NCBI GenBank assembly: GCA_035473775.1 | Contig: DATINV010000099.1 | Coordinates: forward strand, 5,806 to 69,805 | Direction of reading: 5' to 3' | DNA: 64,000 nucleotides | Origin: Chthoniobacterales bacterium | Lineage (GTDB): Bacteria; Verrucomicrobiota; Verrucomicrobiia; Chthoniobacterales; UBA10450 | Shown here: piece by piece, positions 9,348 through 36,946 of the stretch | How the letters are laid out: each line of letters opens with the position of its first letter | How positions within the stretch are numbered: position 1 is the stretch's first letter | Notes under the pieces: model-generated | Seen by the model: only the letters and a program-made list of their open reading frames with translations | Told to the model about the DNA's origin: nothing | Databases searched by the model: none | Program-made: the position numbers and the translations under genes

Positions 9348-9442
9348 GGCGGCGATTTTAATGCCGGAAGCTCGTCCCGCCAACTCCAGACCGCGACATC
9401 TTGTTTGCGTGGGAGTCGGGTAAGTCTTAATTCCACCCAACT

Positions 9443-11209
9443 GTGGGCTCCCGATCATTTTCGAAATTGGTGATCTCCGTCGCCTTGATTGCGATCACGT
9501 GGGCGGTGTTCGGCCAAACCTTGCGCGACAACTTCGTGAATTACGATGATCCGCCTTATGTCAGTGAGAATCGCCAGATCCAAGCGGGGCTGAATTGGCC
9601 CAACGTCGTCTGGGCTTTTACTCATGTTCATTCTCACAACTGGCATCCGCTCACGACGCTTTCGCACATGTTCGATTGCCAGATCTTCGGTCTTCAACCC
9701 GGCGCGCATCATTTCGTTAACGTTGTATTGCACAGTGCGAGCGTGATTCTGCTTTTTCTTTTGCTCGAGCAAACAACCGCATCACTGTGGCGGAGCGCAT
9801 TTGTGGCGGCGGTATTCGCGGTTCATCCGTTGCACGTCGAATCGGTGGCATGGATTTCCGAACGCAAGGACGTGCTCAGCGGTTTGTTTTTTATGCTGAC
9901 TCTCCTGGCCTACGTGCATTACTCGCGAAAACCGGATGCAATCCGTTACTGCGCAATGTCGATTCTGTTCGTCTGCGGTTTGCTCTCGAAGCCGATGTTG
10001 GTCACGCTTCCGGCGGTTCTTTTGTTGTTGGATTATTGGCCGCTTGGAAGATTCAAGACGTCAGAAATCATCCGCCTACGCCAAGGCTACGGCGCGATTC
10101 GTCCAGCTTCCGCAGGCGAAGACATCGGGGATCAGAAGGGTTTAACATTTGCAGGACTAGTTATTGAGAAAACCCCGTTGTTTGTCTTGTCACTCGGTTC
10201 GGCAGTCGCAACGCTGATTGCGCAACGCGGCGGAATCCTTCAAATGGCACATCTGCCGTTGAGCTGGCGAATGGCCAACGCGGCCACGGTTTATCTGATC
10301 TATATCTGGCAAATGTTCTGGCCGGTGAACTTGGCGGTGATTTATCCGCATCCCGGTCAATTGCCATTTTGGAAAACGGCGCTGGCGACTGCGCTATTGA
10401 TTATCGTGACGGTGCTTGCTTTTGTTTCGCGGAAGCAACGCTCTTATTTCATTACCGGCTGGTTTTGGTACTTGATCATGTTAGTGCCGGTCCTCGGATT
10501 GGTTCAGGTCGGCAGTCAGGCGCACGCGGATCGTTACACCTATTTGCCGCAACTCGGCCTTTACGTTGCAGTTGTTTGGGGCATTGCTGATCTTCTCCAA
10601 CCGTTTCGTTACCGGCGGCAACTTTGTGCGGTCTTTGCACCGCTCATCATCGCGGTGCTGGGTTGGCGCGCCTGGGTTCAAACCGGCTATTGGCGCGACA
10701 CGGAACGCTTGTGGAACCGAGCCCTCGCAGTCACCGGGCAAAACGATTTCGCTCATTTCGGACTCGGCGAATTTCTTCTGAAGATTCACCGATTAGATGA
10801 GGCCATTGCGCAGTTCAAAATCGTGCTGTCTACCCATCCGAACGAACCGGATATCAATTTTCAAATGGGTTATGCGTTAATGGAGAAAGGCGACACCGAC
10901 GTGGCGATGGTCCATTTCGAACAAACCTTGAAAGCTAGACCGGGAGATCCCGATGCGGAGACAAACCTCGGCAACTTGCTGCTAAAGTCCGATCGGATTG
11001 AGGAAGCGGTGCAACATTATCGCAATGTGGTCCAACAGAGACCGTCAAGCGCATTGGCCCACTACAATCTTGCGGTCGGTCTTCATCGCCTGGGACGACT
11101 CCCGGAAGCAATTGCTCAATATAAAGAGACGCTCGCGCTCGATCCGAATTATCCCGATGCCGCCGGTTTTTTGTTGGAAGCGCAGGTGCAAAACGGGCCA
11201 GGCAAATGA
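9443..11209 (+). CDS. TMTC/DUF1736-like polytopic membrane protein with C-terminal TPR repeats (putative GT-C protein O-glycosyltransferase), paralog 1
   Basis: 588 aa. NFVNYDDPPYV follows TM1. Also present are HSHNWHPLTTLSHMFDC, FAVHPLHVESVAWISERKDVLSG, SKPMLVTLP..LLLLDYWPL and HADRYTYLPQ, then about 5 TPRs. Confidence 0.75.
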   Translation: MGSRSFSKLVISVALIAITWAVFGQTLRDNFVNYDDPPYVSENRQIQAGLNWPNVVWAFTHVHSHNWHPLTTLSHMFDCQIFGLQPGAHHFVNVVLHSASVILLFLLLEQTTASLWRSAFVAAVFAVHPLHVESVAWISERKDVLSGLFFMLTLLAYVHYSRKPDAIRYCAMSILFVCGLLSKPMLVTLPAVLLLLDYWPLGRFKTSEIIRLRQGYGAIRPASAGEDIGDQKGLTFAGLVIEKTPLFVLSLGSAVATLIAQRGGILQMAHLPLSWRMANAATVYLIYIWQMFWPVNLAVIYPHPGQLPFWKTALATALLIIVTVLAFVSRKQRSYFITGWFWYLIMLVPVLGLVQVGSQAHADRYTYLPQLGLYVAVVWGIADLLQPFRYRRQLCAVFAPLIIAVLGWRAWVQTGYWRDTERLWNRALAVTGQNDFAHFGLGEFLLKIHRLDEAIAQFKIVLSTHPNEPDINFQMGYALMEKGDTDVAMVHFEQTLKARPGDPDAETNLGNLLLKSDRIEEAVQHYRNVVQQRPSSALAHYNLAVGLHRLGRLPEAIAQYKETLALDPNYPDAAGFLLEAQVQNGPGK

Positions 11210-11243
11210 GTTGGAGAAACGCTGAGGTGGTTACTTTGTCGTC

Positions 11244-13166
11244 GTGAGCATGACCGAATCCTGGCGAACGCGATTAGGCATTGCGGTTTTTCTGGTCGCG
11301 ATCACGTGGGCTGTGTTTGGGCAGACGTTCCATCATCAGTTCATCAATTACGACGATCCCCTCTATGTCTACGACAACCCGCACGTGCGCGCGGGGCTGA
11401 GCTGGCAGGGAATCGGATGGGCGTTCACACATGTCCATTCTCAAAACTGGCATCCGCTTACGACGATTTCGCACATGCTCGATTGCCAGCTCTTCGGGGT
11501 CACTCCCGGTCCGCACCATTTAGTCAATGTGTTTTGGCACAGTCTCGCGACGCTGCTGCTTTTCATTTTCCTCACCCGAACCACTGGCGCTGTGTGGGCG
11601 AGCGCATTCGTCGCCGCTATTTTTGCGGTTCACCCATTGCGGGTCGAATCCGTCGCTTGGATCGCGGAGCGCAAAGACGTGTTGAGCGGTGCTTTCTTCA
11701 TGATGACCCTGCTCGCTTATTGTCGCTGGGCTCGCGCACAAACGCTCGGTGGCTATTTAACAACAGCGATCCTTTTCGGCTGCGGTTTAATGTCGAAGCC
11801 GATGCTCGTGACAACCCCGGTTGTCCTGTTACTGCTCGATTACTGGCCGTTGAAGAGGTTCCAGAGGTCCCGCCTTGGCCAAGGCTGCGGCAGGCAAGCA
11901 GAGGTCGGAGGTAGGACCTCAGCAAACCTGATAGTTGAAAAGATTCCGTTGTTCGCATTGTCGGCCGGTTCAATTGTCGCAACCTTGTGGGCCCAAAATT
12001 TCGCGCTCGGCTCTACCGAATTTCTTCCGCTGAAATGGCGCATCACCAATGCCGTCTTCAGTTATTTCGAATACGTCCGGCAAATGTTTTGGCCGGTGAA
12101 TTTGATTCCTTTTTATGTTCATCCGGAAAACCGGCTGGGGATTTGGCGGCTCGCAATTGCGATTGTTTTTCTAATTGCGGTAACGACGGTCGCGTTCGTT
12201 CGCCGGCGGCAAAACCCGTACCTGATCGTCGGCTGGCTTTGGTATCTGGTGATGTTGATTCCTGTGATCGGAATCGTGCAAGTCGGCTTGCAAGGTCACG
12301 CCGACCGTTACACGTATCTTCCGCAAGTCGGGCTTTACCTTGCTATCACCTGGCTCGTTTGCGATCTGATGAAAGATTGCCTGTCGCGCCGTAGCCATTT
12401 CGCGAAGGCGGAGTCCGCGCAGAAAAAGATTTTGGGCGTAGCAGGGACGCTCGTTGTTGGAACGTTGTCGATCTTGTCCGCCAAACAAACGAGTTATTGG
12501 CGCGATACCGAAACATTGTGGCGCCATACGCTCGCGGTGACGCCGGACAGTGACGTTGCGCACACCGGTCTGGGAGGAATTCTGTTTGTGCGCGGCCAAG
12601 TTGACGACGCGATTGAGCATTACGAGCAAGCGCTGCGTTTGCGCGACGGCAACGTGGCGGCGCATTTTGGATTGGCCCGCGCGTTGACGGCACGGCAAAA
12701 AATCGACGCGTCAATTTCTCATCTCCAAAGAGCTCTCGAAATTCAGCCTGATTACATCGCGGCCAGTAACGATCTCGGTGTGCTGCTGGCGAGCAAAGGC
12801 GAAATCAAAGAGGCGATCTTGGCCTGGCAGCGAACGTTGTCATTCGATCCGGACAATCCGGATGCGGCCAATAATATTGCGTGGGTGCGATCGACTGCAT
12901 CCGATTCGGATTTGCGCGATGGCAAGGAAGCGCTCGAACTGGTCCGGCGCGCGGTTCGAAGTGGCGGCGAGAACCCGGTTGTCTTACGAACTCTGGCGGC
13001 GGCCCAAGCCGAGAATGGCGAATTTCGGGAAGCGATTGCGAGTTGCCGGCGCGGCGAAGAACTAGCGCAGAAAAATAATGACCAGGCGATGGTCGAAAGT
13101 TTGAGGCAATGCGCCGACTCGTTCCGCCGCCGCGAGGCCTTGCGCGGGACCCAAGTTTCACACTGA
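11244..13166 (+). CDS. TMTC/DUF1736-like polytopic membrane protein with C-terminal TPR repeats, paralog 2
   Basis: 640 aa, with a GTG at 11244 or an ATG at 11250. Same motif set as paralog 1 (QFINYDDPLYV, FAVHPLRVESVAWIAERKDVLSG, LLLLDYWPL, HADRYTYLPQ) and a longer TPR tail. Confidence 0.75.
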   Translation: MSMTESWRTRLGIAVFLVAITWAVFGQTFHHQFINYDDPLYVYDNPHVRAGLSWQGIGWAFTHVHSQNWHPLTTISHMLDCQLFGVTPGPHHLVNVFWHSLATLLLFIFLTRTTGAVWASAFVAAIFAVHPLRVESVAWIAERKDVLSGAFFMMTLLAYCRWARAQTLGGYLTTAILFGCGLMSKPMLVTTPVVLLLLDYWPLKRFQRSRLGQGCGRQAEVGGRTSANLIVEKIPLFALSAGSIVATLWAQNFALGSTEFLPLKWRITNAVFSYFEYVRQMFWPVNLIPFYVHPENRLGIWRLAIAIVFLIAVTTVAFVRRRQNPYLIVGWLWYLVMLIPVIGIVQVGLQGHADRYTYLPQVGLYLAITWLVCDLMKDCLSRRSHFAKAESAQKKILGVAGTLVVGTLSILSAKQTSYWRDTETLWRHTLAVTPDSDVAHTGLGGILFVRGQVDDAIEHYEQALRLRDGNVAAHFGLARALTARQKIDASISHLQRALEIQPDYIAASNDLGVLLASKGEIKEAILAWQRTLSFDPDNPDAANNIAWVRSTASDSDLRDGKEALELVRRAVRSGGENPVVLRTLAAAQAENGEFREAIASCRRGEELAQKNNDQAMVESLRQCADSFRRREALRGTQVSH

Positions 13167-13398
13167 AATCGCCGCTGAGCCCTCCTCACGCCTGGGGTGG
13201 GGGGTCGAAAATTCTTTAATTTTTTTCTAGGCAGCCGCCGGGAAATCCGATAGAACCGCCGGAAAACGGGGACTGGCTCAGACAATGGGCCCGTTTGCCC
13301 GTTCAAAAAAATTCCAAAAAACTGAAAAAAAACCTTGTCAGCCTGACGACTTTTCAATAATCCCTAGCGCAAACCTAACCAAACCCATGGAGAAACCA

Positions 13399-16300
13399 AT
13401 GACTAGAAACGTGCAAAAAACGTTGGGAATTCGCGTCGCTCTCGTAGCAGCCGCATTTCCATTAATCATCGCGATGAGCGCGCGTGCTCAAGATGCCACC
13501 GCGCCGGCACCGGCGACGACGACTGGATCAAATATCGCCCCGAATGCGGCCCCAGCCGCGACGGAAGCGACAGCTGAGCGCGTTGTCGTAACCGGTTCGA
13601 ACATTCCGACTGCAGAAGAAGTCGGCCCGAACCCGGTTGATACATATCGCCGCGACGACATTACCCGACTGGGTGTGCGCACTGCCACCGACCTGATCCT
13701 GCGCCTTCCGGCGTCGACTGGATCAAACACCACTGAAAACAACACCAACGGTGGTGACGGCAGCACCCGTATCAGTCTTCGTGGTATCGACCCGAAAGAA
13801 ACTCTTGTGTTGCAGGACGGCCGTCGTCTCGCTTATGCGGGCACCGCTTCCATCGACTTCAACCAGTTTCCGTTGGGTTTGATCGATCACATCGACATCC
13901 TGAAGGACGGCGCTTCGCCAATTTACGGCACCGAGGCTGTCGCCGGCGTAGTAAACGTGTTTTTGATTAAGCACTTCCGTGGGTTGGAGGTTTACGCCAG
14001 CTATGGCAACACGAATCTTGGTTTCGCGGGTGACCGGGGTGAAGAGACGGGCTACATGCTTGCAGGTACTGGTGACGACAAGACCAACATCGTCGTTTAT
14101 GCCGGCATTTATAATTCCTCGGCGATCTATTCGCGCGATGTGAATATTTCGCACGATCCGGATAAGTCTGCCTACGGCAGCTTCGATGTCCGTTCCGGTA
14201 ACTTGGCGGGACGCGTGACCGGGGCCTGGTTTCTCGGATTGGCCCAGCAGCCGTTCAAACTGAACTTGAAGACGCCGACTCCACACGCTTCGGCCAACCA
14301 GTTCACCGATACGCAGTACACTGCCCCGGGGTTGACACCTACCTCGGCGATTACGAGCGAGCGTTTCCTGTTCAACTTCGCCGATCTAACGCCCGACATT
14401 GCCGCGACCGATCGCGAGTATTTATATGGTTCGTTTGATCGCGACCTCTGCGACAAATACCTGACCGTAATGGCGGACTTTAAGTATTTCCGCCAATTCT
14501 GGGATGGTGGTTTGGCGCCGACACCGTTCACGCCTGATATCTGGACGGACACGGGTGGTTTTGCGCCGAGCTTCATTAGTGCAGCCAATCCGCTCGGCAC
14601 GGTCGGGGCACACCCCTTCGGTATCAGCAGCGCGGGCATCAGCGTGCCGACACAGAACGCGTTCAATCCGTTCACGACTGGGGACTATACCTCGAATGGC
14701 GGCTTCAACGGCACTTTTCCGGTATTCTCGATCCCGAGCGCCGCGCCTCCGGGAACAGTGTTTACAACTGGCGTGCGTTACCGCTCGCTCGAAGCGGGCT
14801 TGCGCACGGTCAAGATCCAGACCGCCAACTACGTGTTTACCGGTGTCTTGAAGGGTAACTTGGGCGAATTCTCCAATGCCTGGGACCAACTCAAGACCTG
14901 GGAATGGGAATTCGGTTTCCGTTACAATGAAAGTAACCGGGTGGCCAACACCGGTGGAATCGTGAACAACAACGCCTTGCGGGCCTTCTTGCTGGATACC
15001 GATCCGGCTACGGCCTTCAATCCCTTCGGCAAGAACGTAAACAACAAGCGGACGATTAATCAGGTCTTCACGACGACCCACGATGTGGAAGAGTCGACGA
15101 TTATGACTGAGGACTTCGCTCTCCGTGGCGATATGTTCAATCTGCCGGGCGGCGCGGTCCGCTTCGCGATCGGCGGTGCACACCTTGGCAACACCTTCCA
15201 CGATCAGCCCGACCCGCTGACAGTTACCGGCCAAACAACCGGTTCGACTAACGGGCAGGCTACCAAAGGAAACCGCGATACGTGGTCGCTCTACTGGGAA
15301 GCTCGCGTCCCGGTTACCGGACCAACTTGGAACTTCCCAGGCGCCTACAGCTTGGAACTTGGCTACGCCGAGCGGTTTGAGAGCTATAGCGATTTCGGTC
15401 AAACCGAGCGTCCGAAGTTCGACGTTCGCTGGCAGCCGATTGATCAGTCTCTGACTCTGCGCGCGGCTTACATTGAAGCGTTCCACGCTCCAACGCTGTT
15501 TGAATTGTTTGGTGGCACCACGCAGACATTCCCGGCAGTTAAAGATACCTGCAGCACCTGCGGTACCGAGCCACAGGTTGAGCAGCACTTGCAGGGAAAT
15601 CCGAATCTGAAGCCGGAAATAGCTTACGAGTATACCTACGGTGGTGTGATTACTCCGGGCAAATGGTGGGCTCCGTTGTCGGGCTTGACCGTGTCCGCTG
15701 ACTACATCCACATCGACATCCGCGGTTTCACTACAACTCTCGATGCGCAATCACTAATCAACGCGACGAGCAGTATCGCACCAGATGCGAACGGAACCCA
15801 AACCTTGGGCGTGTCCCAGGTGCAACGTGCGGGCGGCGTCGGAACGCCGATCACCCTGTTGCTGACGCCGGAACAGAACCTCGGCTTGGAAGTGCTGAGT
15901 GCTTGGGACTTCGAAGTAGTTGAGATCTTCGAAACCAGCCGCTTGGGCCACGGCGATTGGGGAACGTTCACCGCCACGTGGAATGAAACCTATATGGCGG
16001 ACGTTGACGTCGCGCTTCTGCCGGCGACGAAGGGCGTGCCTGCAAGCAAGCGCCGCACAGTGGTCGGCAAATTCGGCGGCGGCTTTCAAGGCACCAACGG
16101 TGGCGGTTCGTTCACCCATAATCGTTGGTACGCCAGCTTGTTCTACGACGGTCCGTCCGGCTCCTGGATGCAAGGCATCGATGGCGGTTTGGTTGTCCAC
16201 TATATCGGCCAATACTGGGATGACCCTTCGCTCCAGCCCCATGGGCACACATTCGCTGGTGGCAATCCGGCCAACGGACCGAGCGCAAATGGCAAGTTTC

Positions 16301-16650: not shown

Positions 16651-16673
16651 CCGATCAGCAATTTAGATTTCAG

Positions 16674-16710
16674 CGGCCGGGTTCCGAATGGGACCCGGCC
16701 GTTTGCTTTT
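16674..16710 (+). terminator. rho-independent terminator between convergent genes
   Basis: A 9-bp GC-rich stem (CGGCCGGGT at 16674-16682 pairs with ACCCGGCCG at 16693-16701) with a 10-nt loop, followed by TTTGCTTTT. Confidence 0.6.
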
Positions 16711-16770
16711 ACGCCGTGTTGTTAATTTGAAATCCCGCAGACGCCGCAACTAAGGGAAACCCCGCGCCAC

Positions 16771-18837
16771 CTAATCACGGAGCGGCGAACCTTCTTCGAA
16801 GAGCTTAATGTTCGCCTGTAAGGTCTGAGCGAGTGCCGAGTTCCCCTCCGCTTCAGCGAGGGCCAGTCCGTTTTGGGCAGCTTTGATTGCTTCAGGAAAC
16901 CGACCCGCCTCAGCATAAGCCGCCGCGGCGAGACGCCATATTCTGGCATTCTTTCCGCCGGACAATTGAATCGCCTTCTCGGCCGATTCGACGGCCTGCG
17001 TCCCGTTGCGGACCGCAGAGTCCGGAAACGTGGCGAAGACCCAAGCCAGATTGCATTGCGCTTCGAGATTGTTTGAATCAATGAGTAGGGTTCTTTTCCA
17101 CTCGCCGATTGCTTCCCGCATCTGTCCTTTTTGTGACAAGACGATCGCCAGATTGTTATGCGCTTCCGGATAATTTGGATTCAATTTCAGAGCGATTCGG
17201 AGATGCCCAAGCGCCTCGTCGATTTTTCCGGTACGCAACAAAGCATTCGCGAGATTATTGTGTCCCTCCGGAAAGTTCGGATACAACTGAAGCTCGGTCT
17301 CGTAGTTGGAGACGGCGTCGGCCATTTGTCCGCGCTCCATCAGAATGTTCGCCAAATTAAAGTGAACGCGTGCCAACTTTGGATTGAGTTGAAGTGCCTT
17401 CTCCAAATACGCAAGCGCTTCGTCCAAACGTCCTTTTCGCGCGAGCGCTGCGCCCAAAACGCCCTGGGCGTCTGCGCTGCCCGCTCGGGCGTCGACGGCG
17501 CGTCGCGCGGCCGCAACAGCATCATCGATCCGTCCTTTTTCGAGGTAAGCATCCGAAAGATGCTCTTCTGCGTTTTCATTCTCGGGCGTTACCGCCGTAG
17601 CGTGTTCCCAAAGCGCCTCACTCGAACGCCAGTAGGATGTTTGAATGCGAGCAACCCAAGTGAATGCAACCAGCGCAGTAACGGAAATCGCAGTAAAAAT
17701 CAGGTCCCGATATCGAATCGCGCCCAGCAAATCAGCAATTCCCCAGCTCATTGCTAATCCAAGCCCGATTTGAGGAAGATAGGTGTAACGATCAGCGTAG
17801 GCCTGATTGCCAACCTGGATAATACCCAGCACGGGGACCAGCATCCCCACGAACCAAAACCATCCTGCGATCAAATAGGGACAGCGGCGCCTGAGGATCC
17901 AGGCTGACCCGGAAATCGCGATGATTAGCGCGATTGAAAGAGCGATCGCGGACCCTGACAGTGTCTGCAGTGGGTGCGGATAAAAGCACGCCAGATCACG
18001 TGGGACAAATGTCTGCCGCAGATAGATCCCAATGCTGACGCAGGCGTTGGCAATTCGCGAGGACAGCGGCAAGTTCACCGCGTTCCGATCGGGATGTTGC
18101 GTTAAAAGCGCGACCACTGATGTAGCCGCCGACAAAACGACAAAAGGAATCTTTTCCAGGATCAACAGCAGCCAGCCGGAGAGGCGACGACCGCCAATGC
18201 TCGCAGTCGCGTCTCGGTAACGTCTCAACGGCCAATAGTCGACGAGCAAAAGAACAAACGGCAACGTCACCAGCATCGGTTTGGACATCAGCCCAAAAGC
18301 GAAGAGAACTGCGACTAAAAAGTATTTCCCAATTCCGGGTCGGCGGCTGTAAGCGACGTAAGCCGCTAACGTTAACATGAAGAACAATCCGCTTAAGACG
18401 TCTTTGCGTTCTGCGATCCACGCGACTGATTCAACGTGCAAGGGATGGACGGCAAAAATGCCCGCAACCGCCGCGCTTCGCCAGACGGCTCCGGTCATCG
18501 CTTGCAGCGTCAGAAACAGCACCAGCACTGACAAGGTATGCAGAATCGTGTTGGTAAGATGATGACCCCACGGCTGCACCCCGTATATGCGACAATCGAG
18601 CATATGCGACAGCATGGTTAGAGGATGCCAGTTGCCCGCCACTGGCTGAGTAAACGCCCGGCCTACCTGTTGCAGGGTAATTCCCTGCCTGATGTCGAAA
18701 TTCCGGTAGACGTAGGCGCCGTCGTCGAAATTTACGAACTGGTGTGACAAGGTTTGTCCGAAGACGATCCAGGTCAGTGTTACCAATCCAATAGCAACAG
18801 CGACGATCTTCCAAAGCGGTATCGTTCGAGTTGTCAT
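16771..18837 (-). CDS. TMTC/DUF1736-like polytopic membrane protein with long C-terminal TPR domain, paralog 3
   Basis: 688 aa with QFVNFDDGAYV, NWHPLTMLSHMLDC, FAVHPLHVESVAWIAERKDVLSG, SKPMLVTLP..LLLVDYWPL and YADRYTYLPQ. About 8 TPRs follow. Confidence 0.75.
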   Translation of the reverse strand: MTTRTIPLWKIVAVAIGLVTLTWIVFGQTLSHQFVNFDDGAYVYRNFDIRQGITLQQVGRAFTQPVAGNWHPLTMLSHMLDCRIYGVQPWGHHLTNTILHTLSVLVLFLTLQAMTGAVWRSAAVAGIFAVHPLHVESVAWIAERKDVLSGLFFMLTLAAYVAYSRRPGIGKYFLVAVLFAFGLMSKPMLVTLPFVLLLVDYWPLRRYRDATASIGGRRLSGWLLLILEKIPFVVLSAATSVVALLTQHPDRNAVNLPLSSRIANACVSIGIYLRQTFVPRDLACFYPHPLQTLSGSAIALSIALIIAISGSAWILRRRCPYLIAGWFWFVGMLVPVLGIIQVGNQAYADRYTYLPQIGLGLAMSWGIADLLGAIRYRDLIFTAISVTALVAFTWVARIQTSYWRSSEALWEHATAVTPENENAEEHLSDAYLEKGRIDDAVAAARRAVDARAGSADAQGVLGAALARKGRLDEALAYLEKALQLNPKLARVHFNLANILMERGQMADAVSNYETELQLYPNFPEGHNNLANALLRTGKIDEALGHLRIALKLNPNYPEAHNNLAIVLSQKGQMREAIGEWKRTLLIDSNNLEAQCNLAWVFATFPDSAVRNGTQAVESAEKAIQLSGGKNARIWRLAAAAYAEAGRFPEAIKAAQNGLALAEAEGNSALAQTLQANIKLFEEGSPLRD

Positions 18838-18969
18838 TTCCGAATCGATAGATTCTTCATCGCTTTTCGGTCAAAACAAGCGGACTTGAATCAGCGGTCG
18901 ACTCCGGCGGTCGGTGCCGTTGCTTTATGCGCGGCCTTCAGTCAAAATCCCGCGGATCCGAAAACTTCT

Positions 18970-21900
18970 ATGTTTGCGCGCACTCGATTGGTTGCTCCGC
19001 TGCTTTTCGGCTCAGGGTTCTGTGCGCTGATCTATCAGACGACGTGGCTTCGTGAATTCCGATTAATTTTTGGCTCATCTACGGCGGCGACGGCAGCCGT
19101 GATAGGCGTCTTCATGGCCGGGTTGGGCTTTGGGGGAATTATCTTGGGGCAACGCTCAGAGACCAAGGCGCAACCACTCGCTTTCTACGCAACTTTGGAA
19201 TTGTTCATTGCGGTCAGCGCGGGCATTTCTCCGTTGCTCATTTTTGCGGCCCGACACCTCTACATCGCTCTCGGAGGAACCGAAGCTTTGGGACTGCCCT
19301 TCGGGACCCTGTTTCGCTTGATTCTGGCGGCGTTGATTATGGGAACGCCAACCTTTCTTATGGGTGGAACTTTACCCGCGGCCGCTCGCGCCGTCGTTGG
19401 CCAGACAGATGTTGAGCGGCGGTCGATCGGCGCTTTGTATGGCGCCAATACTCTTGGCGCGGTCGCAGGCGTGGCGGTTGGCACGTTTTATTGTTTTGAA
19501 AATCTTGGTAATCAACTGACGCTTTGGCTCGCGGCGGCAGTCAACGTTGCGATTGCACTGGCTGGTTTTCGTCTTTCGAAGGTGATGGCAAGCCGCAAGA
19601 TTGCGCGAGAATCACCTTCCAAGCCGCTGTCTGAAGAAGCGCCGGTTTTGGCAAGTCTGAAGTTCGTCTTGATCGCAGCCGGGATCGTCGGTTTCGCGTT
19701 TTTCTTGATGGAGCTTGTATGGTACCGAATGTTGGCGCCGCTTTTGGGTGGGTCGACATTTTCTTTCGGTCTGATTCTTGCCGTTGCTTTGCTCGGAATC
19801 GGCCTCGGCGGGATCGCATATGGATTTTTCGGGTTGCAGCGCTCTGCATCCTTACAGTTCTTCGCAGTCACCTGCGCGGCGGAAGCATTCTTCATTGCCT
19901 TGCCTTATGCGTTCGGGGATCGGATTGCGATGGTGGCCATGCTCCTTCGACCACTAGGCACGATAGGGTTCCATGGTCACATCATGGCTTGGACCGCATT
20001 ATGTTCGTTCGTCGTTTTGCCGGCCGCATTTGTCTCAGGTCTGCAATTTCCGCTCTTGATTGCTCTACTCGGCAAGGGCAAAAAGCTGGTCGGTTCGCAA
20101 ACTGGCGCTACCTACGCCTGGAATACAATTGGAGCATTGGCCGGTTCGTTGGCGGGTGGTTTCGGGTTCATCCCAAAGTTTTCAGCGCCGGGGGTCTGGA
20201 GAATGGTGATCGTGCTGCTTTGTGTGCTGTCGCTTACTGCCACGCTGCTTGCTCTCCGTGAGCGCGGCCACTGGAGAGCAATCATTGCTCCGGTCGTAAC
20301 GGCGTTCTTCGCGGTATCGATGTTGGCAGCCACTGGCCCGACGGCGTTTTGGCGTCACAGCCAGATCGGCACGGGTCACCTCACACAATTTCAAGGGTCG
20401 GCCAACGACATGCGTGAACTCATCCAAAAATTTCGGCGCGAAACCATTTGGGAAGCGGATGGAATCGAGAGCAGTGTTGCTTTGTCCAGCGGTGATGGAT
20501 TGGCATTCATTGTCAATGGGCGTGCCGACGGCAACGCGAAACGTGATGCCGGGACCCAGGTTATGCTCGGCTTAATCGGCGCGGCAGTGCATCCCGAACC
20601 AATAAAGGCGTTAGTCATAGGATTGGGCACGGGAAGTACGGCGGGCTGGCTCGCCGCGGTGCCGAGTATCGTCAAAGTTGACGCTATTGAGCTCGAACCC
20701 GCCGTTTTGAAAGTGGCAGAGCGATGCGCCCCAGTTAATCACGATGCCATTCTTAATCCAAAACTGCATGTCACCATCGGGGATGCACGGGAAGTTCTTC
20801 TAACCGCCCGTGAAAAATACGATCTTATTGTTTCCGAGCCGTCAAACCCCTACCGGGCCGGAATCGCGGGACTCTTTACCGAAGGATATTATCAATCAGT
20901 CGACCGGTGTTTGCAGCCGGGCGGAATATTTCTTCAATGGGTCCAAGCCTACGATATCGACGATCCAACGATTCAAAGTATTTACCGAACGCTAGGATCA
21001 GTGTTTCCGACGATCGAGACGTGGCAGACCCAGACTGGCGATCTTGCCCTAATGGCATCTCGTTCACCCGTGCACTATGGAGTGGAGGCATTGCGAGCTC
21101 GGCTTGCTCAGGAACCTTTCCAGAGTGCTCTGCGGGTTTCGTGGCAAGCGACAGGGGTGGAAGATTTTCTCGGACATTACGTCGGTAACAATGTCCTAGC
21201 TGATACACTGCAGCATCTCTCACCCGTCCCGATTAATACTGACGATCGGACCGTAATTGAATTCTCGTTAGTCCGATCTTTGAATCAAGCGAACGGCTTC
21301 CAGATCGCAAACCTTCGAGCGAGCGCTCACGATGCGCATGTTGATCGTCCTCAGAATATCGATGGAGAAGTCGATTGGTCCTTGGTTGATGAATCTCGCC
21401 TTTCCATGTTTGGACCGTTGAGTCGAGCCGAGCAAAGCCAAATGAGCTGGACTGCGCCGCAACGAGCTCGTGCGGCGTCGTTCGCGAGTTATTCAGACGG
21501 AGATCTCCCCGACGCTTTACGAAGTTGGCGAGCGCAGGATCAGGAACCGAAGACCGTGACTCAGTTGATGATGATTGGAGAGTGCTTGGCAGAACAAGGC
21601 GATAGCGCCGCGCTTTCTTATATCGATAAGATCCGGGAATCTTTTCCATGGGACGCTGATGCCATTCATGCTGAACTTCTGTGGCGGCAACGAAGACCAG
21701 AAGAGGCGGCAGAAACTCTGGAGAAGCTATTTCGCGCTTTATCGGATAATCCGTGGCCGAACCGTGAATTGATTAATCGTTCGCTTACCCGGGCCGAATC
21801 ACTCGCGAGGTCGGACCGCTCCGGAGTTGTAGCCGGTTTTCTTTACGACGCTTTAAGTAAACCGTTCTCGGTCTTTAACAACGAAAGCGATCGAATGGCC

Positions 21901-22188
21901 ACCAGGTTGGCGATTGGTATTTATGCGGATGGTGGTCGCTCCGGCGAAAAGACATTGGCCGCAATCGAGTCTTATGAGCCGCATATTGTTTGGCGACGGC
22001 AATTCCTCCAGTTGCGAAAAGATTGCTACATAGCCTTAAATAGCCCGCGGGCCGAACAGGCCCGTCGTGACCTCGACGAATTTATGCGACACGAAGCAGC
22101 GAGCGATGACGTATCCACCCTGACCAAGGAAATCCAAGCCCGGACGATGAGCGGGGCCAGTCAGGAGCGAACCGAAACCGGCCAATAA
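18970..22188 (+). CDS. fusion protein: N-terminal polytopic (MFS-like) membrane domain, spermidine-synthase-fold domain, C-terminal helical-repeat region
   Basis: Start set at the ATG at 18970 (MFARTRLVAPLLFGSGFCALIYQTTWLREF). More than 12 hydrophobic segments follow. The Rossmann/aminopropyltransferase-like core reads LVIGLGTGSTAGWL..DLIVSEPSNPYRAGIAGLFT..GGIFLQW. A helical tail of about 330 aa ends the protein. Confidence 0.7.
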   Translation: MFARTRLVAPLLFGSGFCALIYQTTWLREFRLIFGSSTAATAAVIGVFMAGLGFGGIILGQRSETKAQPLAFYATLELFIAVSAGISPLLIFAARHLYIALGGTEALGLPFGTLFRLILAALIMGTPTFLMGGTLPAAARAVVGQTDVERRSIGALYGANTLGAVAGVAVGTFYCFENLGNQLTLWLAAAVNVAIALAGFRLSKVMASRKIARESPSKPLSEEAPVLASLKFVLIAAGIVGFAFFLMELVWYRMLAPLLGGSTFSFGLILAVALLGIGLGGIAYGFFGLQRSASLQFFAVTCAAEAFFIALPYAFGDRIAMVAMLLRPLGTIGFHGHIMAWTALCSFVVLPAAFVSGLQFPLLIALLGKGKKLVGSQTGATYAWNTIGALAGSLAGGFGFIPKFSAPGVWRMVIVLLCVLSLTATLLALRERGHWRAIIAPVVTAFFAVSMLAATGPTAFWRHSQIGTGHLTQFQGSANDMRELIQKFRRETIWEADGIESSVALSSGDGLAFIVNGRADGNAKRDAGTQVMLGLIGAAVHPEPIKALVIGLGTGSTAGWLAAVPSIVKVDAIELEPAVLKVAERCAPVNHDAILNPKLHVTIGDAREVLLTAREKYDLIVSEPSNPYRAGIAGLFTEGYYQSVDRCLQPGGIFLQWVQAYDIDDPTIQSIYRTLGSVFPTIETWQTQTGDLALMASRSPVHYGVEALRARLAQEPFQSALRVSWQATGVEDFLGHYVGNNVLADTLQHLSPVPINTDDRTVIEFSLVRSLNQANGFQIANLRASAHDAHVDRPQNIDGEVDWSLVDESRLSMFGPLSRAEQSQMSWTAPQRARAASFASYSDGDLPDALRSWRAQDQEPKTVTQLMMIGECLAEQGDSAALSYIDKIRESFPWDADAIHAELLWRQRRPEEAAETLEKLFRALSDNPWPNRELINRSLTRAESLARSDRSGVVAGFLYDALSKPFSVFNNESDRMATRLAIGIYADGGRSGEKTLAAIESYEPHIVWRRQFLQLRKDCYIALNSPRAEQARRDLDEFMRHEAASDDVSTLTKEIQARTMSGASQERTETGQ

Positions 22189-22273
22189 ACAAGCGCAACT
22201 TTCAACCTGGCGCTCCGGGCGACGCATTACTTGTGATCATCGTTTCCTTTCTACCACTAATCTTCGACACCTG

Positions 22274-23923
22274 ATGCAAAGGCGTAGCCTGGGCTGGCTT
22301 AATATCCTTTTATTGGTCGTGCCGGTGGTTGCCGTTACGGTTTGTGTTTATCAGCCGGTTTGGCATGGCGGATTCATCTGGGATGACGATCGCTACGTTA
22401 CAAACAATCCGCTGCTCACTGCCTCAGACGGGTTGCGCCGAATTTGGTTTTCACTAGACGCGCCGTCCCAATATTTTCCGCTTTCTTATACGCTCCTGCG
22501 TTTCGAACACGCCTGGTGGGGCCTGAATCCGGCTGGGTATCATTGGGTCAACATTCTTCTGCACGTCGCGAATGCGCTCCTCGTCTGGCGAGTGCTGGTG
22601 CGTCTTCAAGTGCCGGGATCATGGCTGGCCGCGGCAATCTTCGCGTTGCACCCCGTCCAAGTCGAATCAGTCGCGTGGATTTCCGAAGTGAAGAATCTCC
22701 TGATGGGATTCTTTTTTCTGCTGACTCTTTTGGCATGGATTGAATACGTCGATTCGCAAACCCAACGCCGAAGAATCATCTATCTCGCGGCTCTTCTATT
22801 TTATTTCCTCGCGCTCGCCGCGAAATCCACTGCCTGTACGTTGCCAGCGGCTTTAGTCTTGATCCTTTGGTTGAGAAAGAAGCCGATCGACCGCCGCGCA
22901 ATTTTCGAAATTATTCCCTTTCTCGTTCTCGCCCTTGGCGCCGGACTGATCGCAGTTTGGTGGGAGAAATATCATCAAGGCACGCGGGTCCTGGTTTCAC
23001 TCGCGCCCATGGAGCGACTGCTGATCGCGAGCCGCGCGGTGTGGTTTTATCTGAGCAAGATTTTCTGGCCCTCAAATCTGACCTTCATTTATCCGCAATG
23101 GAAGATCGACCCTTCTGATGCGTCGGCTTACTTCTGGTTGGTCGCAACCAGCGCGCTCATCCTGGTCGTTTACTTTTCGAAACGGTTTTTTGGTCGCGGT
23201 ATCGAAGTCGGATTTCTATTTTTTGTTGCTACGTTGTCCCCGCTGCTCGGCTTCATCATGCTCTACACGTTTCGCTACACTTTCGTCGCGGACCATTATC
23301 AATACCTGGCGTGCCTCGGACCGATCGCGCTTGCGTCGGCCGGTTTTACCAAATCCCTCGAGCGGATGGGAAATGCACAGTGGATTAGGTGGACGACTGC
23401 TTTGGCAGCAATTGCCTGTCTCAGCGTGTTAACATTTCGACAAAGCGCGACGTATCACGACCTCGAGACGCTTTGGAGAGCCACGATTGCAAAGGATCCA
23501 AGCTCGTGGATGGCCTACAATAATCTGGGCGTTGTTGAGGTCGAAAAAGGCAACCTCGATGATGCCATTGCTAACTATCAACGATCTCTTCAACTTCATC
23601 CTGAGTATCCGGAAGCGCTTTATAATCTCGGAAGCGCGTTACTCCAGAAAGGTGAAGCGGACAAAGCGGTCGAGCTATGCGAGCAAGCGCTAAAGCTTCA
23701 ACCGAACGACGTGGACGCGCATGTTGTTCTCGGCAATGCGCTAATGGCGAAACAGGATATTGATCGCGCAATCAGTCATTATCACGAGGCGTTAAAGCTT
23801 CAGCCAGACGATTCCAACGCTCATCATAACTTGGGCGTTGCTTTGCAGCAGCAAGGCAAAAATGACGAAGCGGCCCGCGAATTTGAAAAAGCGGGAGAGG
23901 GGCGGTCGAACCGAAAGCAGTAA
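22274..23923 (+). CDS. TMTC/DUF1736-like polytopic membrane protein with C-terminal TPR repeats, divergent paralog 4
   Basis: 549 aa with GFIWDDDRYV after TM1, FALHPVQVESVAWISEVKNLLMG and VADHYQYLACLG. Its 4-5 TPRs include AYNNLGVVEVEKGNLDDAIANYQRSLQLHPEYPEA. Confidence 0.7.
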   Translation: MQRRSLGWLNILLLVVPVVAVTVCVYQPVWHGGFIWDDDRYVTNNPLLTASDGLRRIWFSLDAPSQYFPLSYTLLRFEHAWWGLNPAGYHWVNILLHVANALLVWRVLVRLQVPGSWLAAAIFALHPVQVESVAWISEVKNLLMGFFFLLTLLAWIEYVDSQTQRRRIIYLAALLFYFLALAAKSTACTLPAALVLILWLRKKPIDRRAIFEIIPFLVLALGAGLIAVWWEKYHQGTRVLVSLAPMERLLIASRAVWFYLSKIFWPSNLTFIYPQWKIDPSDASAYFWLVATSALILVVYFSKRFFGRGIEVGFLFFVATLSPLLGFIMLYTFRYTFVADHYQYLACLGPIALASAGFTKSLERMGNAQWIRWTTALAAIACLSVLTFRQSATYHDLETLWRATIAKDPSSWMAYNNLGVVEVEKGNLDDAIANYQRSLQLHPEYPEALYNLGSALLQKGEADKAVELCEQALKLQPNDVDAHVVLGNALMAKQDIDRAISHYHEALKLQPDDSNAHHNLGVALQQQGKNDEAAREFEKAGEGRSNRKQ

Positions 23924-24926: not shown

Positions 24927-25000
24927 CCTTGAATTGTAGGGTGCGAACGAAAAGATTTCCTATAACTTTCCACGGTTTTTTTGGCACAATCGGGGCTGCA

Positions 25001-25972: not shown

Positions 25973-25987
25973 TTTCGGGTCATACTC

Positions 25988-30072: not shown

Positions 30073-30106
30073 GCTGCAAATAGTGCAAGTTGCAGAATAT
30101 GAAACG

Positions 30107-30808: not shown

Positions 30809-30809
30809 G

Positions 30810-32555: not shown

Positions 32556-32607
32556 GTGGAAGAATGAAGTAGGCAGAATTCGTGTTCGAATTGTCAGAGC
32601 GATCTCC

Positions 32608-33474: not shown

Positions 33475-33593
33475 CGAGCGGAGCCTGACTGGTATCGAAA
33501 TCAGAAATTTTGGTCAAGAAAACGCCGCGCCGGCGGAGCCCGCTCGACAGGAATTGCAGTGCTTGATAGTTCTTCAAATGTAATCTTCAGGCC

Positions 33594-35234: not shown

Positions 35235-35253
35235 GCAAAAACTCGGGCCAGGG

Positions 35254-36945: not shown

Positions 36946-36946
36946 T

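What the first reader, a model, noticed from the sequence alone, without database searches (positions are those of the whole stretch)
9443..23923. Four paralogous bacterial TMTC-like (DUF1736 + TPR) proteins clustered within 14.5 kb
The ORFs at 9443, 11244, 16771(-) and 22274 share one architecture: roughly 400 aa of TM helices followed by 4-8 TPRs. They also share near-identical signature blocks. The first three carry NWHPLT..SHM.DC, FAVHPL.VESVAWI.ERKDVLSG, SKPMLVT.P..LLL.DYWPL and HADRYTYLPQ. The fourth is a diverged version (FALHPVQVESVAWISEVKNLLMG, VADHYQYLACLG). The HP..VE.V.W...R block is the DUF1736 signature of eukaryotic TMTC1-4, which are Dol-P-Man-dependent protein O-mannosyltransferases that use a lumenal TPR domain. 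Four copies with differently sized TPR tails suggest several acceptor specificities. Two polyprenyl-P sugar synthase genes lie only a few kb away. Bacterial members of this family have essentially no experimental characterisation that I know of.
Basis: partly seen in the sequence, partly recalled or inferred. Interest (0 to 1): 0.7.

Follow-up and report, generated by a model that had tools for sequence, protein, structure and literature searches.

The report
Four bacterial TMTC-like membrane glycosyltransferase paralogs
Four neighbouring genes in a soil Verrucomicrobia genome encode membrane enzymes related to the animal TMTC protein-mannosylating enzymes; they are ordinary members of a very large, already auto-annotated but experimentally untested bacterial family.

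Summary
Four paralogous ORFs (A 9443-11209, B 11244-13166, C 16771-18837 minus strand, D 22274-23923) each have about 410 aa of membrane helices followed by 5 to 8 TPR-like hairpins, and the quoted motifs are present.

The membrane domain is specifically homologous to animal TMTC1-4: a TMTC profile hits only these four ORFs (E 5e-29 to 6e-20), profile-profile probability is 99.6% over all 11 helices, and the reciprocal search scores 60-97 bits against 2-4 bits for ArnT and Pmt1. The AlphaFold model matches only GT-C glycosyltransferases.

The DUF1736 label is wrong. Pfam DUF1736 matches none of the four. The quoted HP..VE block is the helix 3 / loop 2 motif, not DUF1736.

ORF D belongs to a separate conserved subfamily with a remodelled active site (Arg to His in the phosphate-binding motif).

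The family is huge (33,829 cluster representatives at E<=1e-30), spans many phyla, and tandem arrays are common. JGI already names many members "protein O-mannosyl-transferase".

Most likely function: periplasmic glycosyl transfer from polyprenyl-phosphate sugars, probably onto proteins. Neither substrate is known.

Verdict: new member of a known kind, moderate interest.

The parts
9443..11209 (+). Paralog A, 588 aa as ORF (NCBI model 579 aa, start about 9470). TMTC-like GT-C domain about aa 1-418, TPR tail aa 420-584.
   Evidence: TMTC profile E 4.5e-29, 96 bits. AlphaFold pLDDT 84.6, pTM 0.83, 11 TM helices plus 10 TPR helices. 100% identical to P0001 'tetratricopeptide repeat protein [Chthoniobacterales bacterium]'.
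11244..13166 (+). Paralog B, 640 aa. Canonical subtype with a longer TPR tail that includes the conserved C-terminal 'N.AW..T...R.G..A' module. Lies 35 bp downstream of A on the same strand.
   Evidence: TMTC profile E 3.5e-23. PMT_2 23.7 bits, below the 26.1 cutoff.
16771..18837 (-). Paralog C, 688 aa. Canonical subtype with the longest TPR tail (about 8 hairpins).
   Evidence: TMTC profile E 5.5e-20. PMT_2 24.3 bits, below cutoff.
22274..23923 (+). Paralog D, 549 aa. Member of a separate conserved subfamily. It keeps DD, HP..E, K183, T188, R276 and D..Y.Y but has R141V, D143N, D197L, R364H and NWH->QYF (numbering of A).
   Evidence: (E 2.3e-23).
13285..16650 (+). TonB-dependent receptor gene lying between B and C. 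The same position is conserved in a relative.
   Evidence: Plug and TonB_dep_Rec_b-barrel. Same order in L001/L002.
18754..22188 (+). Fused MFS / spermidine-synthase-like protein with a C-terminal TPR, lying between C and D. Conserved neighbour. The upstream part of the ORF overlaps C, so the true start is probably later.
   Evidence: NF037959 115.6 bits, Spermine_synth 55 bits. About 10 hydrophobic segments. Conserved in L001/L002.
7331..8722 (+). Polyprenyl glycosylphosphotransferase (initiating sugar-phosphate transferase), 0.7 kb upstream of A.
   Evidence: Bac_transf 224 bits. TIGR03025 375 bits, above its cutoff of 295.55. Conserved in L001.
23928..24926 (-). NAD-dependent sugar-nucleotide epimerase/dehydratase, immediately downstream of D.
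   Evidence: Epimerase 170 bits, GDP_Man_Dehyd 155 bits. Only sub-threshold equivalog hits.
24929..25972 (+). GT2 resembling polyprenyl-phosphate sugar synthases (ArnC / PgfS / GtrB type), with 2 C-terminal TM segments. Candidate maker of a lipid-linked donor.
   Evidence: Full-length matches to PgfS (2.1e-44) and ArnC (2.4e-44), both far below the equivalog cutoffs. TM segments.
32608..33474 (-). Second GT2, resembling AglJ / dolichyl-phosphate hexose transferase, with 3 C-terminal TM segments. Candidate maker of a lipid-linked donor.
   Evidence: TIGR04182 2.2e-34, NF041391 5.2e-29, both below cutoffs. TM segments.

Best explanation
A, B, C and D are inner-membrane GT-C glycosyltransferases of the TMTC-like family (CAZy GT105 kind). 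Each has an 11-helix catalytic domain with the N-terminus in the cytoplasm. The catalytic Asp-Asp loop and the C-terminal TPR solenoid face the periplasm.

The proposed mechanism has four steps, all inferred:
1. A cytoplasmic-face GT2 loads a sugar onto undecaprenyl or another polyprenyl phosphate. Candidates are the genes at 24929-25972 and 32608-33474.
2. The lipid-linked sugar is flipped to the periplasmic face. No flippase was identified.
3. The GT-C domain transfers the single sugar to an acceptor held by the TPR domain. By analogy with TMTC1-4 and with the architecturally identical pilin glycosyltransferase TfpW, the acceptor is most likely Ser/Thr of periplasmic or outer-membrane proteins.
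4. The different TPR tails (about 5, 6-7, 8 and 5 hairpins) would give different acceptor ranges.

D represents a second, conserved subtype whose donor-binding residues are remodelled (Arg to His in [DE]RxxY, RxD lost). It probably uses a different donor or has a different role.

Shown here: paralogy, specific TMTC homology, GT-C fold, conserved catalytic motifs, family size and spread, conserved synteny.

Inferred: topology (from hydropathy, charge bias and homology), the lipid-linked donor, a protein acceptor, and the division of labour among paralogs.
For: - A profile of 7 animal TMTC N-domains hits only these four ORFs among the 305 ORFs of the window, with E 4.5e-29 to 5.5e-20.
- hhalign of the family against TMTC gives probability 99.6%, E 4.7e-24, 375 columns, collinear over residues 15-414.
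- The reciprocal family HMM scores TMTCs at 60-97 bits, against ArnT 2.0, Pmt1 N-half 3.6, and no more than 0.7 for the other GT-C-like proteins of the window that scored at all.
- For the AlphaFold model of the TM domain (pLDDT 83.8, pTM 0.87), all 28 best Foldseek PDB matches are GT-C enzymes that use lipid-linked donors. These include Pmt4 (E 1.4e-4, TM-score 0.49), STT3/PglB/AglB, ArnT, AftA and DPY19.
- Residues invariant in about 293 family members coincide with TMTC functional motifs as defined in PMC7801869: D35-D36 (M1), H128-P129..E133, R141.D143 (M3), K183....T188 (M4), D363-R364..Y367 (M7).
- Charge bias fits N-in / TPR-out. The 62-aa DD loop has 2 K/R and 5 D/E. The predicted cytoplasmic loops carry 3 to 6 K/R each. 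The model has 11 TM helices.
- TPR domains are strong in all four proteins.
- Two polyprenyl-P sugar-synthase-like GT2 genes and a phosphoglycosyltransferase gene are nearby.
- The gene order is conserved in a 62%-identical relative, which carries an extra tandem copy.
- D's substitutions are fixed in 120/120 subfamily members, so they are under selection and not decay.
- TfpW, which has 11 TM helices, a periplasmic TPR and an essential DDx motif, O-glycosylates pilin Ser/Thr from a polyprenyl-P donor (bioRxiv 10.1101/2020.04.19.049825).
Against: - No biochemical data exist for any bacterial member. Donor and acceptor are unknown.
- Two TMTC metal and phosphate ligands are not conserved. The Glu of KE(T/Q)xxT is Pro, and the Asp of the DW motif is hydrophobic. 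The EL4 loop is too diverged for Pfam DUF1736.
- Linkage to GT2 synthase-like genes is weak across the family, about 13 of 80 loci within 10 kb, and there was no baseline for comparison.
- In this window the GT2 genes sit next to other GT-C-like genes that could be their real partners.
- No flippase gene was found.
- The locus looks like a polysaccharide/LPS locus, so a glycan or lipid acceptor is possible.
- Homology to TfpW was not tested.
Confidence: 0.55

Rival explanations
1. Same enzyme class (TMTC-like GT-C using a polyprenyl-phosphate sugar), but the acceptor is not a protein. The enzymes would decorate LPS, lipid A, capsule, exopolysaccharide or another envelope glycan in the periplasm, as in ArnT or the Gtr-type three-component systems. 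The TPR domain would bind the glycan or dock onto export machinery.
For: - The four genes sit in a locus with a polyprenyl glycosylphosphotransferase, a sugar-nucleotide epimerase/dehydratase, two GT2 genes and at least four further GT-C-like genes.
- UDP-glucose dehydrogenase and LptD genes are also in the window.
- Three-component periplasmic glycan modification is a well-documented bacterial use of GT-C enzymes (PMC11127046).
Against: - The family is specifically related to TMTCs, which are protein O-mannosyltransferases, and not to ArnT or the PMT_2-type GT-Cs in the same window.
- The architecture is that of TfpW, which acts on a protein.
- In TMTCs and in O-GlcNAc transferase the TPRs bind protein substrates (established knowledge).
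- The GT2 genes are adjacent to other GT-C-like genes, not to A-D.
Confidence: 0.28
2. D, and possibly other copies, is a non-catalytic or regulatory paralog. It could be a partner subunit of a heteromer with A, B or C, as Pmt1 pairs with Pmt2, or a TPR-bearing substrate receptor.
For: D lacks residues that are almost invariant elsewhere: R141 (149/150), D197 (150/150) and R364 (148/150). R364 corresponds to the TMTC arginine that is modelled to bind the donor phosphate (PMC7801869).
Against: - D keeps the DD motif, HP..E, K183, T188, R276 and D..Y.Y.
- Its substitute residues are themselves fixed (N143, H364 and Q-Y-F in 120/120) in a subfamily of at least 6,044 proteins. That looks like an alternative active site. 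His can still bind phosphate.
Confidence: 0.12
3. These are not enzymes at all. They would be membrane-anchored TPR scaffold proteins, as the public names suggest (tetratricopeptide repeat protein, PilF, TadD, CcmH/NrfG).
For: NCBI and many JGI names for close homologs refer only to the TPR part. NCBIfam gives only sub-threshold TPR hits.
Against: - The 410-aa membrane domain is the most conserved part of the protein.
- It carries the GT-C catalytic motifs, has a GT-C fold and is homologous to TMTC.
- The scaffold names come from TPR-only matches.
Confidence: 0.04

Closest known systems
Animal TMTC1-4 (CAZy GT105), ER protein O-mannosyltransferases for cadherins and protocadherins
   Same: - 11-TM GT-C domain followed by an extracytoplasmic TPR domain.
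- Significant, collinear sequence homology over the whole N-domain.
- Shared DD motif, 'FAVHP.H.E.V....R.D', K....T and [DE]RxxY.
   Different: [quoted passage not shown]
- The Glu of KE(T/Q)xxT is Pro, and the Asp of DW is hydrophobic.
- SHKSYRP is replaced by (H)S.NWHP.
- The host is a bacterium, so the donor must be a bacterial polyprenyl-P sugar, not Dol-P-Man.
- Cadherin-type acceptors are not expected.
- The genes occur in tandem arrays.
TfpW of Pseudomonas aeruginosa Pa5196/PA7, a pilin O-arabinofuranosyltransferase
   Same: According to bioRxiv 10.1101/2020.04.19.049825, TfpW is a bacterial inner-membrane GT-C with a cytoplasmic N-terminus, 11 TM helices, an essential DDx motif in periplasmic loop 1 and a periplasmic C-terminal TPR domain. 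It O-glycosylates Ser/Thr of a protein using a polyprenyl-P-linked sugar.
   Different: - Sequence homology to the window family was not tested, because no TfpW sequence was at hand.
- tfpW lies directly downstream of its pilin substrate gene. Nothing identified next to A-D matched a pilin family in Pfam or NCBIfam.
- TfpW also polymerises its sugar.
Three-component periplasmic glycosylation systems (GtrA/GtrB/Gtr*, ArnC/ArnE-F/ArnT, streptococcal PgfS/PgfM1)
   Same: The logic is the same: a GT2 polyprenyl-P sugar synthase plus a GT-C transferase acting outside the cytoplasm (PMC11127046, PMC12041528). The window's GT2 at 24929-25972 matches PgfS and ArnC over their full length.
   Different: - Their GT-C components belong to other families (GT83, YfhO-like, GT136) and lack TPR tails.
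- The family HMM does not hit ArnT.
- No flippase gene was found here.
- Genetic linkage of A-D to a GT2 gene is loose.
PMT / POMT (GT39) protein O-mannosyltransferases, including the actinobacterial Pmt
   Same: GT-C fold. The best Foldseek match is Pmt4. A lipid-phosphate sugar donor and Ser/Thr protein acceptors. B and C show weak PMT_2 similarity.
   Different: - PMTs use a DE motif and a lumenal MIR domain, not TPRs.
- Pfam PMT_2 is below its threshold in B and C and absent in A and D.
- The family HMM scores the Pmt1 N-half at 3.6 bits.

Membership tests
TMTC / CAZy GT105 | N-terminal multi-pass domain homologous to the TMTC N-domain | tested here: met
   TMTC HMM against the window ORFs: only A-D hit, at 66-96 bits. 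hhalign probability 99.6%, E 4.7e-24, 375 columns. Reciprocal search 60-97 bits.
TMTC / CAZy GT105 | Pfam TMTC_DUF1736 (PF08409) domain in the TM7-TM8 loop | tested here: not met
   No hit at E<=10 in A-D. Absent from the precomputed Pfam lists of 240 homologs. Not among the 25 families most matched by 70 representatives. Positive control: TMTC3 and TMTC4 hit at 1e-31 and 8e-33. The region still aligns at profile level, and R276 and P294 are shared with TMTCs.
TMTC / CAZy GT105 | DD motif (M1) in the first extracytoplasmic loop | tested here: met
   D35-D36 are present in A-D, in 149/150 representatives and in 7/7 TMTCs.
TMTC / CAZy GT105 | SHKSYRP motif (M2) in EL1 | tested here: inconclusive
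   It aligns to (H)S.NWHP. Only the Pro (P69) is invariant in both groups. K, S and R are not conserved.
TMTC / CAZy GT105 | RxD motif (M3) after 'HP.H.E' in EL2 | tested here: met
   A, B and C have ERKD. R141 is R in 149/150 and D143 is D in 147/150 representatives. TMTCs have R and D/E. Not met in D, which has EVKN, fixed as (L/V)KN in its subfamily.
TMTC / CAZy GT105 | KE(T/Q)xxT motif (M4) in EL3, where K binds phosphate and E binds metal | tested here: inconclusive
   K183 is 150/150 and T188 is 143/150, both conserved. The Glu position is Pro in 124/150 representatives and Ser/Ala in the D subtype.
TMTC / CAZy GT105 | DW motif (M5) in EL4, where Asp binds metal | tested here: not met
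   hhalign pairs DW with I-Y of 'IYPHP'. The Asp position is hydrophobic, and the Trp position is Tyr (Y301, 149/150).
TMTC / CAZy GT105 | ERxxY motif (M7) in EL5, where Arg binds the donor phosphate | tested here: met
   A, B and C have DRYTY. D363 and R364 are each 148/150 and Y367 is 149/150. D has DHYQY, with His fixed in 120/120 of its subfamily.
TMTC / CAZy GT105 | C-terminal TPR domain on the non-cytoplasmic side; 11 TM helices; N-terminus cytoplasmic | tested here: inconclusive
   TPR presence is certain. The AlphaFold model shows 11 TM helices. Positive-inside charge bias and homology both point to N-in / TPR-out. The orientation is predicted, not measured.
TMTC / CAZy GT105 | Dol-P-Man donor and O-mannosylation of protein Ser/Thr | not testable with these tools
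   Needs biochemistry or glycoproteomics. JGI's name 'protein O-mannosyl-transferase' is an automatic transfer, not evidence.
GT-C fold superfamily | GT-C membrane fold with the catalytic acidic residue(s) in the first extracytoplasmic loop | tested here: met
   In the Foldseek PDB search with the TM-domain model, the 28 best matches are all GT-C enzymes, with probability 0.96-1.00 and TM-score up to 0.52. Non-GT-C hits start at E 0.15 with probability of 0.3 or less. The DD motif is in loop 1.
PMT_2 (PF13231) / ArnT-PMT type GT-C | Score above Pfam's gathering threshold of 26.1 bits | tested here: not met
   B 23.7 bits, C 24.3 bits, A and D no hit. 25 of 70 wider family members match at E<=0.01. 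The family HMM does not hit ArnT or Pmt1.
Three-component periplasmic glycosylation system | Polyprenyl-P sugar synthase (GT2), flippase and GT-C encoded together | tested here: inconclusive
   GT2 candidates lie 1 kb and 9 kb from D, both below the equivalog cutoffs. No GtrA/SMR/MATE-like gene was recognised; the locus is tightly packed with large ORFs. GT2 co-occurrence was seen in about 13 of 80 related loci.
TfpW-type pilin glycosyltransferase | Sequence homology to TfpW, and position next to its pilin substrate gene | not tested
Only the architecture as described in the paper matches. None of the flanking genes scanned matched a pilin family.

The most novel reading that the evidence does not exclude
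The canonical (A-C) and His-type (D) enzymes together form a multi-enzyme periplasmic protein O-glycosylation system. TPR tails of different length would select different envelope protein classes, and the two active-site subtypes would use different lipid-linked sugars. If so, this family of about 10^5 clusters is the bacterial root of eukaryotic TMTC O-mannosylation. It would also mean that protein O-glycosylation is widespread and unrecognised in Verrucomicrobiota, Planctomycetota, Acidobacteriota, Desulfobacterota and other phyla.
Probability: 0.3. Interest if true: 0.7.

Novelty: new member of a known kind. Interest (0 to 1): 0.42.

Why it matters
TMTC1-4 are disease-linked human enzymes. 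In the literature and the PDB copy searched here I found no solved TMTC structure, and in 2021 their own transferase activity had still not been shown directly (PMC7801869). Bacterial homologs that keep most of the catalytic motifs would be tractable material for structure and mechanism work.

The bacterial family is very large: 33,829 50%-identity clusters at E<=1e-30. It is spread over many environmental phyla, often in tandem arrays, yet I found no experimental study of it. If the acceptors are proteins, a major bacterial protein-glycosylation route is unexplored.

The finding itself is not surprising. Prokaryotic TMTC homologs were noted in 2021 (PMC7801869), JGI already names many members 'protein O-mannosyl-transferase', and GT105 is already reported in CAZyme surveys of bacterial genomes and microbiomes.

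Tried and rejected
- Pfam and NCBIfam on the full proteins gave only TPR hits plus sub-threshold PMT_2. A sequence search of the PDB with the TM domain of A gave nothing.
- Foldseek with the full-length model was swamped by TPR proteins such as OGT and APC/C subunits, and was uninformative for the membrane part. I repeated it with a model of the TM domain alone.
- A crude Kyte-Doolittle scan found only 9-10 segments and split or merged some helices. I used the AlphaFold helices for the helix count.
I repeated it with 70. That output lists only the 25 most-matched families, so 'no DUF1736 match at all' is not proven for those 70, only that fewer members match it than match the 25th family listed (19 members).
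- One literature search combining TMTC with phylum names was badly designed and returned only community-survey papers.
- Co-occurrence of the family with GT2, TonB-receptor, MFS/spermidine-synthase-like and other window genes in 83 loci was low outside close relatives. I do not use it as evidence for a functional link.
- I considered that D might be a decaying copy. I rejected this because its substitutions are fixed across a large subfamily of uniform length.

Full report
**What is there**

The window (about 55% G+C) carries four ORFs at the stated coordinates:
- A, 9443-11209 (+), 588 aa
- B, 11244-13166 (+), 640 aa
- C, 16771-18837 (-), 688 aa
- D, 22274-23923 (+), 549 aa

Their translations contain the quoted blocks. 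In a joint alignment B, C and D are 53%, 46% and 31% identical to A. All four have strong C-terminal TPR matches and a hydrophobic N-terminal part of about 400 aa. A is 100% identical to a GenBank protein named 'tetratricopeptide repeat protein [Chthoniobacterales bacterium]' on an 80.8-kb MAG contig. The source is therefore a soil-type Verrucomicrobiota genome. NCBI's model is 579 aa, so A probably starts about 9470.

**Is it TMTC-like?**

Pfam does not say so directly. Run on the isolated membrane domains at E<=10, it gives nothing for A and D and only sub-threshold PMT_2 for B and C (23.7 and 24.3 bits against a cutoff of 26.1). There is no DUF1736 hit.

I therefore took the N-terminal domains of animal TMTC1, TMTC3 and TMTC4 from Additional file 1 of Eisenhaber et al. 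2021 (PMC7801869) and aligned seven of them (A2). The tests gave these results:
- An HMM of that alignment, searched against all 305 six-frame ORFs of at least 80 aa in the window, hits exactly A, D, B and C. E-values are 4.5e-29, 2.3e-23, 3.5e-23 and 5.5e-20, at 66-96 bits. Nothing else hits, not even the other GT-C-like proteins of the window.
- Profile-profile comparison of 44 bacterial family members against the TMTC alignment gives probability 99.6% and E 4.7e-24. The 375 aligned columns run collinearly from residue 15 to 414 of A, that is, over all 11 helices.
- In the reverse direction, the bacterial family HMM scores the seven TMTCs at 60-97 bits. It scores ArnT (5EZM) at 2.0, the N-half of yeast Pmt1 at 3.6, and no more than 0.7 for the other multi-pass proteins of the window that scored at all.

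The relationship to TMTC is therefore real and specific.

**Fold**

AlphaFold2 with a 62-sequence alignment gave a confident model of full-length A (pLDDT 84.6, pTM 0.83). A second run gave a confident model of its membrane domain alone (pLDDT 83.8, pTM 0.87).

The model has 11 long membrane helices. [quoted passage not shown] This is the layout that Eisenhaber et al. derived for TMTCs.

Foldseek against the PDB with the full model returned only TPR proteins. With the membrane domain alone, the 28 best matches are all GT-C glycosyltransferases that use lipid-linked donors:
- Pmt4 (9i5k, E 1.4e-4, TM-score 0.49)
- STT3, PglB and AglB
- ArnT
- AftA
- DPY19

Unrelated transporters start at E 0.15 with probability of 0.3 or less. 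No TMTC chain appeared among the matches in the PDB copy. [quoted passage not shown]

**The DUF1736 claim**

According to PMC7801869, DUF1736 is the lumenal loop between TM7 and TM8, which contains the DW motif. That is the end of TM3 plus loop EL2 with motif M3 (RxD).

The evidence on Pfam PF08409 is as follows:
- It finds human TMTC3 and TMTC4 N-domains at 1.1e-31 and 8e-33 in the same library.
- It finds none of the four window proteins.
- It is in none of the precomputed Pfam lists of 240 close homologs.
- It is not among the 25 families most often matched by 70 diverse representatives, whereas PMT_2 is matched by 25 of them.

The loop is still homologous at profile level, and R276 and P294 are shared with TMTCs. 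It is simply too diverged for the Pfam model. 'TMTC-like' is right; 'DUF1736 + TPR' is not.

**Catalytic motifs**

I aligned 150 representatives, 143 ORFs from related loci and the TMTCs to the family HMM. These positions are almost invariant in bacteria and identical or conservative in TMTCs:
- D35-D36, motif M1, the catalytic DD
- P69
- H128-P129 and E133
- R141 and D143, motif M3
- K183 and T188, motif M4
- D197
- R276 and P294
- Y301 (Trp in TMTC)
- D363-R364..Y367, motif M7; this Arg is modelled to bind the donor phosphate in TMTCs and is conserved in OST/PglB

These positions are not conserved:
- the Glu of KE(T/Q)xxT, which is Pro here
- the Asp of DW, which is hydrophobic here
- most of SHKSYRP, which reads (H)S.NWHP here

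**Paralog D is a different subtype**

D departs from positions that are otherwise nearly invariant: R141V, D143N, D197L, W199L, N279I, R364H and N66-W67-H68 to Q-Y-F.

A search with D's membrane domain returned at least 6,044 proteins at E<=1e-20. The best 120 are 68-100% identical to D and of very uniform length (median 550 aa). In all 120 the alternative residues are fixed: N143, H364 and Q-Y-F in 120/120, L/V141 in 120/120. The DD, HP..E, K183, R276 and D..Y.Y residues are kept.

D is therefore not a decaying copy. It belongs to a conserved second subtype with a remodelled donor site.

**Topology**

This is inferred, not measured. The 62-aa loop after TM1 that carries the DD motif has 2 K/R and 5 D/E. 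The loops predicted to be cytoplasmic by the 11-helix model are K/R-rich: 6, 3 and 3 in the last three. Homology to TMTCs (N-terminus cytoplasmic, TPR lumenal) agrees with this. The DD loop and the TPRs are thus placed in the periplasm.

**Context**

Upstream of A lies a polyprenyl glycosylphosphotransferase (7331-8722; TIGR03025 at 375 bits, above its cutoff). Between the paralogs lie a TonB-dependent receptor (13285-16650) and a 1144-aa fused MFS/spermidine-synthase-like protein with a TPR tail (18754-22188).

Downstream of D the genes are:
- a sugar-nucleotide epimerase/dehydratase (23928-24926, minus strand)
- a GT2 that matches ArnC and PgfS over their full length (24929-25972, E about 2e-44, 2 C-terminal TM segments)
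- a run of further multi-pass, GT-C-like proteins
- a second GT2 of AglJ / Dol-P-hexose transferase type (32608-33474, minus strand, E 2e-34, 3 C-terminal TM segments)

Both are far below the equivalog cutoffs, so the sugars are unknown. They are also adjacent to other GT-C-like genes that may be their real partners. No GtrA/SMR/MATE-like flippase gene was recognised.

In a Chthoniobacterales MAG with a 62%-identical ortholog, the gene order is conserved: glycosylphosphotransferase, riboflavin-synthase-like gene, TMTC-like genes, TonB receptor, TMTC-like gene on the minus strand, then the MFS/spermidine-synthase-like gene. That MAG has three tandem copies where this window has A and B.

**How common is this?**

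A profile of the four membrane domains finds the following numbers of 50%-identity cluster representatives among 1.84 billion:

| E-value cutoff | Representatives |
|---|---|
| 1e-3 | 112,649 |
| 1e-10 | 84,457 |
| 1e-30 | 33,829 |

The best 80 come from Verrucomicrobiota, Planctomycetota, Desulfobacterota/Syntrophia, Acidobacteriota, Nitrospirota, Nitrospinota, Gemmatimonadota, Armatimonadota, Chlorobi and Hydrogenedentota.

In those loci (21 kb or less each) the number of family ORFs per locus is:

| Family ORFs per locus | Loci |
|---|---|
| 1 | 41 |
| 2 | 24 |
| 3 | 5 |
| 4 | 5 |
| 5 | 7 |
| 6 | 1 |

Tandem arrays are therefore a normal trait of the family, not a peculiarity of this window.

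JGI already names many members 'protein O-mannosyl-transferase'. Papers that mention GT105 include CAZyme surveys of bacterial genomes and microbiomes. Eisenhaber et al. noted 'homologues even among prokaryotes'.

**Mechanism and rivals**

The best-supported reading is that these are periplasm-facing GT-C transferases that take a single sugar from a polyprenyl-phosphate donor. This is the general three-component logic of bacterial extracytoplasmic glycosylation (PMC11127046, PMC12041528).

I consider protein Ser/Thr the most likely acceptor. The only characterised relatives, TMTCs, and the only characterised bacterial enzyme of identical architecture, TfpW, both glycosylate proteins, and TPRs usually bind proteins or peptides.

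The locus also looks like a glycan-biosynthesis locus, so a polysaccharide or LPS acceptor is a serious rival (0.28). A purely structural TPR role is very unlikely (0.04). D may use another donor, or may act as a non-catalytic partner (0.12).

**Verdict**

- It is wrong on the DUF1736 assignment, and it overstates how special the clustering is.
- This is a new member of a known, widely auto-annotated but experimentally untouched kind.
- Interest is moderate (0.42). It comes mainly from the size of the unexplored family and from the two active-site subtypes sitting side by side.

Noticed in passing
window 24929-39787: A dense block of envelope-glycosylation genes lies beyond the finding. It holds two GT2 polyprenyl-P-sugar-synthase-like genes, a SAM methyltransferase and at least six multi-pass proteins, several of them GT-C-like. 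These include 38177-39787(-) with PMT_2 at 60 bits and 'ERDEGEYAY'; 36947-38173(-), GT87-like; 30810-32555(-) and 35254-36993(-), paralogs that share 'YLW(E/A)DEGDTA' after TM1; 25988-27964 with a weak DUF2298 match; and 27961-30072 and 33594-35234 with no family match. Counting A-D, the window may encode ten or so lipid-donor glycosyltransferases.
   Followed up: partly
window 18754-22188 (+): A 1144-aa protein has about 10 hydrophobic segments, a spermidine-synthase-like methyltransferase-fold domain (NF037959 'fused MFS/spermidine synthase', 115 bits) and a C-terminal TPR. It sits between paralogs C and D, and the same position is conserved in a related MAG (L001/L002). Its function is unknown. 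The ORF's 5' end overlaps C by 84 bp, so the real start is probably later.
   Followed up: partly
window 22274-23923 (D) and homologs P0271-P0390: D defines a separate, very uniform subfamily of about 550 aa. The phosphate-binding Arg of [DE]RxxY is always His, the RxD motif is (L/V)KN, and NWH is QYF, each in 120/120 sequences. At least 6,044 homologs score E<=1e-20.
   Followed up: yes
window 12900-13160 (end of B) and 16780-17050 (end of C): B and C, but not A or D, end in a conserved module: 'N(I/L)AW...T..DS..R(D/N)G..A.E......SGG.N.....(T/L)(L/A)AAA.AE.G.F.EAI'. The same module appears in the consensus of the wider family (alignments A6 and A7). It may be a distinct C-terminal binding unit.
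   Followed up: no
window 13285-16650 (+): A TonB-dependent receptor of 1121 aa is embedded between the paralogs. The same placement is conserved in a related Chthoniobacterales MAG (L001/L002), and TonB-receptor homologs occur within 10 kb in four further loci from related Verrucomicrobiota. It could be an acceptor or simply a neighbour.
   Followed up: partly
window 9443-9470 / 8745-9458(-): The longest ORF for A overlaps the start of the divergent riboflavin-synthase-like gene by 16 bp. NCBI's 579-aa model implies a start about 9470, which removes the overlap.
   Followed up: partly
window 46989-50363 (+): A further large TPR protein of 1124 aa has an N-terminal signal-like segment and one internal hydrophobic segment. 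It is not related to the GT-C family, since the TMTC profile does not hit it.
   Followed up: no
loci L021, L032, L048, L060, L081 (genome contigs): Arrays of five or six tandem family members within 12-21 kb occur in Smithellaceae, Planctomycetota, Phycisphaerales, Sedimentisphaerales and Acidobacteriaceae MAGs. These are larger arrays than the one in this window.
   Followed up: partly
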